Assembly (NCBI RefSeq): GCF_003334255.1
Contig: NZ_QOWU01000004.1
Source of the DNA: Escherichia coli
GTDB lineage: Bacteria; Pseudomonadota; Gammaproteobacteria; Enterobacterales; Enterobacteriaceae
Length of the DNA stretch: 64,000 bases
Direction: 5' to 3' (one strand)
Within the stretch, counting starts at the first letter, position 1, and every line of letters begins with the position of its first letter. This document shows, in pieces, positions 63,503 to 64,000 of the stretch. Position numbers and translations under genes: made by a program. Under the pieces are notes generated by a model, which saw only the letters and a list, made by a program, of their open reading frames with translations, was not told the origin of the DNA and searched no databases.

Positions 63503-63704
63503 GTCTATTATTGGGTCCTTTGGTGAACGATCAACAAAGGGCCACTAGCACACCTGATTCCTCTCTAAATACCCTATCCGAACCTTCTCTTTTGTAACGT
63601 TCTAAATATATTCCTAAAAATCTTCAATTCATTGTGACCACAAGTTTTTCTTCGCTTTTTCGTATGAAGATACTGTCATTAAAATAATAGAAAAGGATTT
63701 TACG

Positions 63705-64000
63705 ATGAGCGGAAAACCGGCGGCGCGTCAGGGTGACATGACGCAGTATGGCGGTAGCATTGTTCAGGGTTCAGCCGGGGTACGTATTGGTGCCCCCACC
63801 GGCGTGGCCTGTTCGGTGTGCCCCGGCGGAGTGACGTCCGGCCATCCGGTCAATCCCCTGCTCGGTGCAAAGGTCCTTCCCGGTGAAACCGACATCGCCC
63901 TGCCCGGCCCGCTGCCGTTCATCCTCTCCCGCACCTACAGCAGTTACCGGACAAAAACGCCCGCGCCGGTGGGGAGCCTCGGCCCCGGCTGGAAAATGCC
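63705..64000 (+). CDS. rhsB: Rhs-family protein, N-terminal PAAR-like region (continues beyond window)
   Basis: ATG at 63705 read by hand; translation MSGKPAARQGDMTQYGGSIVQGSAGVRIGAPTGVACSVCPGG... is the conserved Rhs N-terminus; position after nikR matches K-12 rhsB. Confidence 0.8.
   Translation, partial: MSGKPAARQGDMTQYGGSIVQGSAGVRIGAPTGVACSVCPGGVTSGHPVNPLLGAKVLPGETDIALPGPLPFILSRTYSSYRTKTPAPVGSLGPGWKM

What the first reader, a model, noticed from the sequence alone, without database searches (positions are those of the whole stretch)
63503..64000. rhsB begins at the window edge with a PAAR-like N-terminus, a second polymorphic-toxin locus
After nikR there is an AT-rich 200-bp leader, then an ORF starting MSGKPAARQGDMTQYGGSIVQG..., the conserved Rhs N-terminal region with PAAR-like character. 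Together with yhhZ about 35 kb away, the window holds two secretion-cargo-type toxin genes without any cognate secretion machinery.
Basis: partly seen in the sequence, partly recalled or inferred. Interest (0 to 1): 0.4.

Follow-up and report, generated by a model that had tools for sequence, protein, structure and literature searches.

The report
Start of E. coli rhsB toxin gene
The window ends in the first 98 codons of rhsB, a long-known E. coli Rhs toxin gene; its "PAAR-like" start is one of the three repeats of a real PAAR domain, as in the characterised effector Tse5, so the finding is correct but ordinary.

Summary
nikR ends at 63502. A 202-bp leader with 35% GC follows. An ORF starts at ATG 63705, not 63503, and runs off the window end. 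Its 98 visible codons are identical to E. coli K-12 RhsB.

The window is not MG1655. It matches wild phylogroup-A-like strains such as G1/2 exactly. In G1/2 the gene continues into a 1411-aa protein with every Rhs hallmark:
- a DUF6531 plug
- at least 12 RHS/YD repeats
- an RHS core with PxxxxDPxGL
- a DUF4329 (Tox-JAB-2) toxin tip
- the Imm-NTF2-2 immunity gene yhhH

"PAAR-like" needs qualifying. Only residues 2-29 resemble PAAR, and always the last of the three repeats. Scores lie far below family cut-offs. The short 46-48-residue N-terminal module is nevertheless conserved across diverged relatives. It is homologous to the 47-residue N-terminal fragment of Pseudomonas Tse5, which is described as required for type VI secretion.

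yhhZ (27139-28317) is an Hcp-toxin fusion 35.4 kb upstream. No type VI machinery genes lie in the window. Everything here is already described, so interest is low.

The parts
63101..63502 (+). nikR, the last core-genome gene before the element. Its stop codon marks the left edge of the variable region.
   Evidence: ORF list and RefSeq annotation of the identical K-12 sequence. In genomes without rhsB at this site, homology to the window stops at 63500-63509.
63503..63704 (+). AT-rich 202-bp leader belonging to the RhsB accessory element. The promoter and any regulatory sites were not identified.
   Evidence: 35.1% GC. It is single-copy, present in only 2126 of 5426 complete E. coli genomes, and at least 99% identical in 2024 of them. 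No + strand sigma-70-like site lies upstream of the ATG and there is no Rfam match.
63514..63543 (+). Hairpin just after the nikR stop codon (GGUCCUUUGG...CAAAGGGCC) with no U-run. It may be a nikR 3' end structure, but it is not statistically distinctive.
   Evidence: Fold gives -18 kcal/mol with z = -1.6 against shuffles. The terminator scan found none.
63705..64000 (+). 5' end of rhsB: codons 1-98 plus 2 nt, cut off by the window end.
   Evidence: Translation. 100% identical to annotated rhsB. RHS_core positions 1-98 at E 4.6e-61.
63705..63845 (+). N-terminal fragment, residues 1-47. It holds one PAAR-like repeat (residues 2-29, 63708-63791) and a CxxCPGG linker. It ends at H47|P48, which corresponds to the K47|P48 self-cleavage site of Tse5.
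   Evidence: PDB matches always fall on the last PAAR repeat. The module is 46-48 aa in 23 diverged relatives, with invariant P5 A6 R8 D11 I19 V26 I28 G29 G33 C36 C39 P40. The family profile aligns to Tse5-NT at E 8e-4.
63840..63995 (+). Start of the DUF6531 N-terminal plug of the Rhs shell (residues 46-97 are visible; the domain runs to 123 in the full protein).
   Evidence: Pfam DUF6531 E 1.2e-12 on the fragment and 2.2e-17 on the full protein. It aligns to residue 1 of the Tse5 shell chain 8cp6_B.
27139..28317 (+). yhhZ, an Hcp (type VI tube protein) domain fused to a C-terminal HNH-like toxin region.
   Evidence: NCBIfam VI_effect_Hcp1 at 118 bits against a 58.9 cut-off, residues 1-147. 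Pfam T6SS_HCP 2.5e-11; HNH only weak at 0.013.
28314..28808 (+). yrhA, intact here at 164 aa. It is the presumed immunity partner of YhhZ; in MG1655 it is interrupted by IS1.
   Evidence: ORF list. NCBIfam YrhA family at 122 bits. The IS1 is absent from the window.

Best explanation
This is the 5' end of rhsB, the main gene of the RhsB accessory element inserted between nikR and yhhJ in about 39% of complete E. coli genomes.

Shown:
- The 98 visible codons equal K-12 RhsB.
- In the genome identical to the window, the gene encodes a 1411-aa Rhs polymorphic toxin.
- The parts, in order, are: a 47-residue N-terminal fragment with one PAAR-like repeat; a DUF6531 plug; a YD-repeat shell; an RHS core with two DPxGL motifs 17 residues apart; and a 164-residue DUF4329/Tox-JAB-2 tip.
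- The Imm-NTF2-2 immunity gene yhhH follows.

Inferred from solved homologues (Tse5, P. protegens RhsA, P. laumondii Rhs1):
- The shell encapsulates the toxin tip.
- The aspartyl-protease core cuts after PxxxxDPxGL at L1247.
- The N-terminal fragment is cut at H47|P48 and stays anchored in the plug.
- The short PAAR-like fragment docks the protein on a VgrG spike for type VI delivery into neighbouring bacteria.
- YhhH protects the producer.

My estimates: identity as rhsB about 0.99; built as type VI cargo of the Tse5 short-N-terminus type about 0.7. Whether it is ever delivered by the strain in this window is unknown. Nothing in the window could deliver it, and K-12 and B strains have no type VI system.
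For: - Identity and locus.
- Full architecture: RHS_core 2643.8 bits against a 2000 cut-off, YD repeats 1.4e-40, Rhs_assc_core 1.4e-23.
- Pfam: DUF6531, 12 RHS repeats with E <= 0.001, and PF03527.
- Motif positions, and no transmembrane segment in the first 300 residues.
- Toxin tip DUF4329 at 9.8e-40. YhhH Imm-NTF2-2 at 3.4e-26. This is exactly the toxin-immunity pairing tabulated in PMC3482391.
- GC falls from about 62% to about 34% at the core/tip boundary.
- Short N-terminus: it is conserved across 23 diverged relatives.
- Short N-terminus: it is homologous to the last PAAR repeat of solved PAAR proteins and to Tse5-NT.
[quoted passage not shown] Tse5 associates with the VgrG1c spike (PMC10684867; PMC9637101).
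- Element boundaries and distribution.
Against: - The window has no vgrG, Eag chaperone or type VI core gene next to rhsB or anywhere else.
- K-12 and B strains carry this same gene and lack type VI secretion (PMC6730261), so the gene is kept where delivery is impossible.
- One PAAR repeat cannot by itself form the three-fold PAAR cone. How Tse5-NT binds VgrG is also unresolved, because residues 1-29 are disordered in the cryo-EM map.
- No experiment on E. coli RhsB delivery, cleavage or toxicity was found in the searchable literature.
- The biochemical activity of DUF4329 is only predicted: JAB-fold peptidase or nuclease in PMC3482391, and 'RNase' attributed to Ma 2017b in PMC7216683.
Confidence: 0.8

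Rival explanations
1. The locus works mainly as an internally expressed toxin-antitoxin or addiction module. The toxin tip would be transcribed from promoters inside rhsB and neutralised by YhhH, which keeps the element in strains that cannot deliver it. This does not exclude the main explanation.
For: Salmonella Rhs main and orphan tips are expressed from internal promoters and act as type II TA modules, while the full-length rhs and its T6SS genes are not transcribed (PMC7043789). Earlier work on K-12 RhsA, cited in PMC3150448, suggested a toxin/immunity pair governing a stationary-phase viability block. The element is retained at 99% identity or more in thousands of genomes, including K-12 and BL21, which lack T6SS.
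Against: No internal promoter or internal start was tested for rhsB here. The 4.2-kb shell and the 47-residue N-terminal module are intact and conserved (2 amino-acid differences between K-12 and G1/2), which a pure TA role would not require.
Confidence: 0.3
2. In this lineage rhsB is a silent relic: stranded cargo left after loss of the type VI system. Its only consequence would be as a long repeat that promotes chromosomal rearrangement, which is the original meaning of 'rearrangement hot spot'.
For: No machinery lies in the window. K-12 and B lack T6SS. The rhs core is repeated, at a median of 3 places per genome. rhsA/rhsB recombination is the historical observation (PMC3150448). No convincing promoter was found in the leader.
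Against: The ORF is full-length with no frameshift in K-12 or G1/2 and differs at only 4 nt over 4236. All catalytic and cleavage motifs are intact. A neutral relic of this size would be expected to accumulate disruptions, as the adjacent HEAT-repeat pseudogene has done.
Confidence: 0.2
3. The N-terminus is a complete, canonical PAAR domain, making this a standard PAAR-Rhs spike tip.
For: The literal PAAR tetrapeptide is present at residues 5-8. The literature often states that the long E. coli Rhs proteins have a PAAR domain (PMC7216683; PMC6730261).
Against: The NCBIfam T6SS_PAAR_dom match is 16.4 bits against a 124 cut-off and covers only model positions 68-94 of 94. The Pfam PAAR_motif match has i-E 0.027 and covers model positions 51-69 of 70. 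Only 47 residues precede the shell plug, whereas solved PAAR proteins are 93-99 residues with three repeats. True three-repeat relatives carry about 60 extra N-terminal residues.
Confidence: 0.03
4. RhsB is a prePAAR-type effector, in which an N-terminal AARxxDxxxH motif complements a downstream split PAAR, with transmembrane helices bound by an Eag chaperone.
For: Residues 6-15, AARQGDMTQY, fit AARxxDxxx but end in Y instead of H.
Against: There is no hydrophobic segment (maximum Kyte-Doolittle 19-residue mean 0.98 in the first 300 residues). No PAAR domain lies downstream; DUF6531 begins at residue 46. No DUF1795/Eag gene is nearby. The prePAAR architecture itself is described in PMC8636562.
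Confidence: 0.02

Closest known systems
E. coli K-12 RhsB (WP_000015298.1) with YhhH; the RhsB element of the Hill laboratory literature
   Same: It occupies the same locus after nikR. It is 100% identical over the leader and the 98 visible codons. It has the same downstream order: rhsB, yhhH, HEAT-repeat pseudogene, ISEc1 yhhI, yhhJ.
   Different: The window comes from a wild strain of the G1/2 type, not MG1655. The full protein in that strain differs at V624I and R625C, and YhhH at A78T.
Pseudomonas aeruginosa Tse5 (PA2684; PDB 8CP6), an H1-T6SS Rhs effector carried by VgrG1c
   Same: Both have a 47-residue N-terminal fragment that begins at residue 1 with a single PAAR-like repeat: MSGLPVSHVGEKVSGGVISTGSPTVHVGSS in Tse5 and MSGKPAARQGDMTQYGGSIVQGSAGVRIGAP in RhsB. 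Both have the cleavage-site context X47|P48-V-N-P-(M/L)-L-G. Both continue with a DUF6531 plug, YD shell and aspartyl-protease C-terminal plug.
   Different: Tse5 lacks the literal PAAR letters, is encoded beside its vgrG in a T6SS-positive host, and carries a pore-forming tip with a membrane immunity protein. RhsB has a Tox-JAB-2 tip with an NTF2-fold immunity protein and no vgrG neighbour. Cleavage and secretion of RhsB are untested.
Canonical PAAR spike-tip proteins (V. cholerae VCA0105, 4JIV; E. coli c1882, 4JIW; SalCis10, 9RCE)
   Same: RhsB residues 2-29 are homologous to their third repeat. The family profile gives E 8.6e-13 to 2.4e-6.
   Different: These proteins have three repeats in 93-99 residues that form one cone. 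RhsB has one repeat and fails both family thresholds.
Three-repeat PAAR-Rhs relatives of the same clade (for example P0062, P0102, P0104, P0112)
   Same: They share the linker G(V/R)ACSxCPGG, the PVNPLLGAKVL plug start and the Rhs shell, at 50-56% identity over the first 126 residues.
   Different: They carry about 60 additional N-terminal residues, amounting to two more PAAR repeats. The RhsB type looks like the same protein with repeats 1-2 absent.
prePAAR-TMD-PAAR Rhs effectors (P. protegens RhsA, 7Q97; P. laumondii Rhs1/Tre23, 7PQ5)
   Same: They share the Rhs shell, the DUF6531-type plug and the double DPxGL autocleavage site. The last PAAR strand of Rhs1 aligns to the RhsB N-terminus at E 3.4e-6.
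   Different: These have 25-29 kDa N-terminal regions with transmembrane helices and Eag chaperones. RhsB has none of these.

Membership tests
Rhs / YD-repeat polymorphic toxin (NCBIfam NF041261 RHS element core protein) | Conserved N-terminal region with the DUF6531 plug | tested here: met
   In the window itself: RHS_core positions 1-98 at E 4.6e-61, and DUF6531 at E 1.2e-12.
Rhs / YD-repeat polymorphic toxin (NCBIfam NF041261 RHS element core protein) | Array of RHS/YD repeats forming the shell | tested here: met
   The repeats are not in the window. In the continuation of identical genomes, TIGR01643 scores 1.4e-40 and Pfam finds 12 RHS_repeat hits with E <= 0.001 between residues 361 and 892. 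The full-length score is 2643.8 against a 2000 cut-off.
Rhs / YD-repeat polymorphic toxin (NCBIfam NF041261 RHS element core protein) | RHS-associated core ending in PxxxxDPxGL (the aspartyl autoprotease site) | tested here: met
   TIGR03696 at 1.4e-23 over residues 1170-1247, and PF03527 at 2.7e-15. PISDIDPLGL lies at 1238-1247, and a second DPxGL lies 17 residues upstream. Cleavage itself was not tested.
Rhs / YD-repeat polymorphic toxin (NCBIfam NF041261 RHS element core protein) | Variable C-terminal toxin tip followed by a cognate immunity gene | tested here: met
   DUF4329/Tox-JAB-2 at 9.8e-40. YhhH Imm-NTF2-2 at 3.4e-26. The pairing is listed in PMC3482391. The GC drop at the boundary is seen. 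Toxicity and protection were not tested.
PAAR domain (Pfam PF05488; NCBIfam NF033420 T6SS_PAAR_dom) | Match to the family model at or above its threshold | tested here: not met
   16.4 bits against the 124 cut-off. Pfam gives 15.1 bits with i-E 0.027. No PAAR hit is listed at all in the 1200-residue scan.
PAAR domain (Pfam PF05488; NCBIfam NF033420 T6SS_PAAR_dom) | Three PAAR repeats (about 90 residues) forming one cone | tested here: not met
   One repeat only, at residues 2-29. It always aligns to the last repeat of the solved PAAR proteins. Only 47 residues precede the plug.
PAAR domain (Pfam PF05488; NCBIfam NF033420 T6SS_PAAR_dom) | Binding to the tip of a VgrG trimer | not testable with these tools
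   This needs a pull-down or a structure. For the homologous Tse5-NT the literature reports a requirement for secretion and association with VgrG1c.
Tse5-type Rhs effectors with a short PAAR-like N-terminal fragment | N-terminal fragment of about 47 residues, homologous to Tse5-NT, directly followed by P-V-N-P-x-L-G | tested here: met
   The family profile A1 hits 8cp6_A at E 8e-4, aligning residues 1-32. The RhsB PVNP motif is at residue 48. 8cp6_B residue 1 aligns to RhsB residue 48.
Tse5-type Rhs effectors with a short PAAR-like N-terminal fragment | Self-cleavage at residue 47|48, and type VI and VgrG-dependent export | not testable with these tools
   There are no experimental data for RhsB, and no vgrG is adjacent.
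prePAAR effectors | An AARxxDxxxH motif, plus transmembrane domain(s), plus a downstream PAAR domain and an Eag chaperone gene | tested here: not met
   The motif ends in Y rather than H. There is no hydrophobic segment, no downstream PAAR domain and no DUF1795 gene nearby.
Type VI secretion gene cluster (cognate machinery in the window) | tssA-M core genes, or vgrG, within the window | tested here: not met
   The window is collinear with annotated K-12 genes from malT to rhsB, with no extra DNA. The only related gene is yhhZ, annotated tssD-like.
Hcp-toxin fusion (for yhhZ) | N-terminal Hcp/TssD domain above threshold, with a C-terminal toxin extension | tested here: met
   TIGR03344 at 118 bits against a 58.9 cut-off over residues 1-147. 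The 245-residue extension gives only a weak HNH hit at 0.013, so the toxin type is inconclusive.

The most novel reading that the evidence does not exclude
The 46-48-residue, single-repeat N-terminal module shared by E. coli RhsA-D-type proteins and Tse5 may not be a decayed PAAR domain. It could be a distinct, selected way of mounting an Rhs cage on a spike. One possibility is that three one-repeat modules, and hence three Rhs cages, assemble into one pseudo-PAAR cone. Another is that one repeat completes a partner protein that supplies the other two. 'Neighbourless' copies such as nikR-linked rhsB would then persist in T6SS-less strains through TA-like addiction. The evidence here does not exclude this. 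The module's length and 12 invariant positions are conserved, and its mode of VgrG binding is structurally unresolved.
Probability: 0.12. Interest if true: 0.45.

Novelty: already known. Interest (0 to 1): 0.1.

Why it matters
It matters little as a discovery. rhsB is a named and annotated E. coli gene. Its element structure, its toxin/immunity logic and the link between Rhs, PAAR and type VI secretion are all published.

The check has three practical results:
- It fixes the coordinates. The gene starts at 63705, and the element starts right after the nikR stop codon.
- It shows the window is a wild strain rather than MG1655.
- It sharpens 'PAAR-like' into a precise statement: one of three repeats, of the Tse5 type.

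The one open question it touches is how such a one-repeat module loads onto a VgrG spike, and why intact cargo genes persist in strains without the machinery.

Tried and rejected
- I first translated from 63707 by miscounting and got stop codons. The correct ATG is 63705.
- I assumed the window was collinear with MG1655. Direct comparison failed. BLAST showed a missing IS1 and a divergent tract.
- The promoter/terminator scan of 63300-63800 found no + strand promoter-like site in the leader and no terminator.
- The Rfam scan of 63300-64000 at E <= 1 found nothing.
- The hairpin after nikR is not significant, z = -1.6.
- The prePAAR and transmembrane readings were rejected.
- The full-PAAR-domain reading was rejected.
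- The idea that the short N-terminus is a K-12-specific 5' truncation was rejected. In-frame stops lie immediately upstream, and nearly all diverged full-length relatives start at the same residue.
- Koskiniemi 2013 (PMC3637788) and Ma 2017a (PMC5711352) are not held in the library. Ma 2017b was available only through citing papers.
- I did not find an affordable way to check whether strain G1/2 has a type VI system elsewhere in its genome.

Full report
**What is at the coordinates**

The nikABCDE-nikR operon ends with nikR at 63101..63502. A 202-bp intergenic stretch follows at 63503..63704. Its GC content is 35.1%, against 52.7% for the window and 66% for the ORF that follows. The ORF begins at ATG 63705 and is preceded by a GGA-rich ribosome-binding site. 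It stays open to the last base of the window, giving 98 codons that read MSGKPAARQGDMTQYGGSIVQGSAGVRIG.... Only the start coordinate, 63503, refers to the leader rather than the gene.

**Which organism and which gene**

- Window 63000-64000 is 100% identical to many complete E. coli chromosomes, where the features are annotated nikE, nikR and rhsB.
- The window is not MG1655. BLAST against three MG1655 segments gives 99.96-99.98% identity, apart from a 17-kb tract (37772-54886) at 99.1%. The window also lacks the IS1 that interrupts yrhA in MG1655.
- Window 27001-52000 is 100% identical to human faecal isolates G1/2, G6/7 and G8, and to B-1109 and JP538.
- Window 62000-64000 occurs exactly in G1/2.

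In G1/2 the ORF continues for 4236 nt. It is followed by yhhH, a HEAT-repeat pseudogene, the ISEc1 transposase gene yhhI, and then yhhJ and rbbA, exactly as in K-12. The 1411-residue protein differs from K-12 RhsB at two residues, and YhhH differs at one.

Domain evidence for the full protein:
- It scores 2643.8 bits on NCBIfam RHS_core, against a cut-off of 2000.
- YD repeats score 1.4e-40 and the RHS-associated core 1.4e-23.
- Pfam finds DUF6531 at residues 46-123, twelve RHS repeats with E <= 0.001, and PF03527.
- PISDIDPLGL lies at 1238-1247, with a second DPxGL 17 residues upstream. This is the spacing described for Rhs autoproteolysis sites (PMC8636562).
- The C-terminal 164 residues are DUF4329 at 9.8e-40. 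Zhang et al. call this domain Tox-JAB-2 and list it as paired with Imm-NTF2 family 2 immunity proteins (PMC3482391).
- YhhH is Imm-NTF2-2 at 3.4e-26.
- GC content falls from about 62% to about 34% at the core/tip boundary, the classic Rhs core/extension signature.

The condition that would have refuted the finding is therefore not met.

**The element and its edge**

In the 61% of complete genomes that lack rhsB at this site, homology to the window stops at 63500-63509, which is the nikR stop codon. In those genomes the nikR-yhhJ gap holds other cargo:
- a hicAB toxin-antitoxin pair in strain CH427;
- a GntR/PTS/aldolase island in Nissle 1917.

The leader is single-copy. It occurs in 2126 of 5426 genomes and is at least 99% identical in 2024 of them, including BL21. 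The rhs coding start, by contrast, recurs at a median of three places per genome. The AT-rich leader therefore belongs to the RhsB accessory element, not to the core genome. I found no + strand promoter-like site in it, no terminator, no Rfam family and no significant structure.

**How PAAR-like is the N-terminus**

Taken alone, the evidence is weak and partial.
- NCBIfam T6SS_PAAR_dom gives 16.4 bits against a 124-bit cut-off. The match covers residues 2-29 and model positions 68-94 of 94.
- Pfam PAAR_motif gives i-E 0.027.
- Against solved structures, residues 2-29 always align to the last repeat of canonical PAAR proteins: VCA0105 67-93 of 93, and SalCis10 71-98 of 99.

An exhaustive search with residues 1-126 found 445 relatives.
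- Nearly all full-length relatives, down to 50% identity, start at the same residue 1.
- A minority carry about 60 extra N-terminal residues that form two further PAAR repeats ahead of the shared G(V/R)ACSxCPGG...PVNPLLGAKVL segment.

In 23 diverged relatives the stretch before PVNP is always 46-48 residues. Twelve positions are invariant, including two cysteines. A profile built from this module hits solved proteins as follows:

| Solved protein | E-value |
|---|---|
| SalCis10 | 8.6e-13 |
| VCA0105 | 3.6e-7 |
| c1882 | 2.4e-6 |
| last PAAR strand of P. laumondii Rhs1 | 3.4e-6 |
| N-terminal chain of P. aeruginosa Tse5 | 8e-4 |

The conclusion is that this is one of the three PAAR repeats. 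It is homologous and under constraint, but it is not a PAAR domain by either family's threshold.

**The closest characterised relative**

Tse5 is split into an N-terminal fragment M1-K47, a shell P48-L1168 and a C-terminal toxin. [quoted passage not shown] Residues 1-29 are not resolved in the cryo-EM map (PMC10684867; PMC9637101).

RhsB has H47|P48-V-N-P-L-L-G-A-K where Tse5 has K47|P48-V-N-P-M-L-G-S-K. RhsB has no hydrophobic segment and no neighbouring Eag chaperone gene or vgrG. It is therefore not of the prePAAR-TMD-PAAR class described for P. laumondii Rhs1 and P. protegens RhsA.

**Mechanism**

The architecture listed above is shown. The following steps are inferred from the solved homologues:
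- The YD shell encloses the Tox-JAB-2 tip.
- The aspartyl-protease plug cuts after L1247.
- The N-terminal fragment is cut at 47|48 and remains anchored in the DUF6531 plug.
- The exposed one-repeat module attaches the cage to a VgrG spike for contact-dependent delivery.
- YhhH neutralises the toxin in the producer.

I put about 0.7 on the statement that the protein is built as type VI cargo. Whether it is ever fired by this strain is unknown.

**The 'two cargo genes without machinery' remark**

yhhZ lies at 27139..28317, and its end is 35,388 nt upstream of the rhsB ATG. It carries a TssD/Hcp domain at 118 bits against a 58.9 cut-off, plus a 245-residue extension with only a weak HNH signal. 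An intact yrhA follows it.

The window is collinear with annotated K-12 genes from malT to rhsB, and none of them is a type VI core gene or a vgrG. A review states that E. coli K-12 and B have no type VI system, and that 'neighbourless' Rhs proteins form a family related to T6SS2-linked Rhs (PMC6730261). The remark therefore holds for the window. I could not establish whether G1/2-type strains carry a type VI cluster elsewhere.

**Rival explanations**

- An internally expressed, TA-like role, as shown for Salmonella Rhs tips (PMC7043789), could explain retention without machinery. It is compatible with the main reading.
- A silent-relic reading fits the missing machinery and the undetected promoter. 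It fits poorly with an intact 4.2-kb ORF that differs at only 4 nt between K-12 and G1/2.
- The full-PAAR and prePAAR readings are excluded at the sequence level.

**Verdict**

The observation and the interpretation are essentially right, but everything is already known. rhsB is a named gene, and its element structure and the Rhs/PAAR/type VI connection are in the literature. The added value here is the exact coordinates, the identity of the strain type, the left boundary of the element, and the precise meaning of 'PAAR-like'. Interest is low. The only mildly open point is how a one-repeat module engages a VgrG trimer.

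Noticed in passing
window 28314-28808 (junction near 28695-28706): yrhA is intact here at 164 aa and belongs to the YrhA family. In MG1655 an IS1A element sits at this point. The window therefore shows the ancestral, uninterrupted yhhZ-yrhA pair, an Hcp-toxin gene with its presumed immunity gene.
   Followed up: partly
window 37772-54886: This 17-kb tract covers roughly livF to dcrB and includes rpoH, ftsYEX and zntA. It is only 99.1% identical to MG1655 (138 mismatches, 4 gaps), whereas the flanks are 99.96-99.98% identical. That looks like a recombination patch relative to K-12.
   Followed up: no
window 63500-63509 (nikR stop); loci L005 7153-7977 and L006 7147-13056: The nikR-yhhJ gap is a variable integration site. 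It holds the RhsB element in 39% of complete E. coli genomes, a hicAB toxin-antitoxin pair in strain CH427, and a 6-kb GntR/PTS/kinase/aldolase island in Nissle 1917.
   Followed up: partly
L001 14401-14751 (beyond the window, downstream of yhhH): A HEAT-repeat or 'lyase' pseudogene with an internal stop lies between yhhH and the ISEc1 (H-repeat) transposase gene yhhI. It is present in both K-12 and G1/2. It may be a remnant of the element's downstream cargo.
   Followed up: no
L001 13913-13941 (beyond the window): The annotated yhhH start overlaps the last 29 nt of rhsB. The Pfam immunity domain covers only residues 60-127, and the first ~30 residues are hydrophobic, so the true start or a signal-like leader is uncertain.
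   Followed up: no
window 63514-63543: A 10-bp-stem hairpin lies just after the nikR stop codon with no U-run. It is not distinguishable from shuffled sequence (z = -1.6).
   Followed up: yes
proteins P0062, P0102, P0104, P0112: In three-repeat relatives the first repeat (for example MAGKPAARLGDGTEYGGPIV in P0062) resembles the RhsB start about as well as the third repeat does. The one-repeat form could have arisen by recombination between repeats 1 and 3. This was not tested phylogenetically.
   Followed up: no
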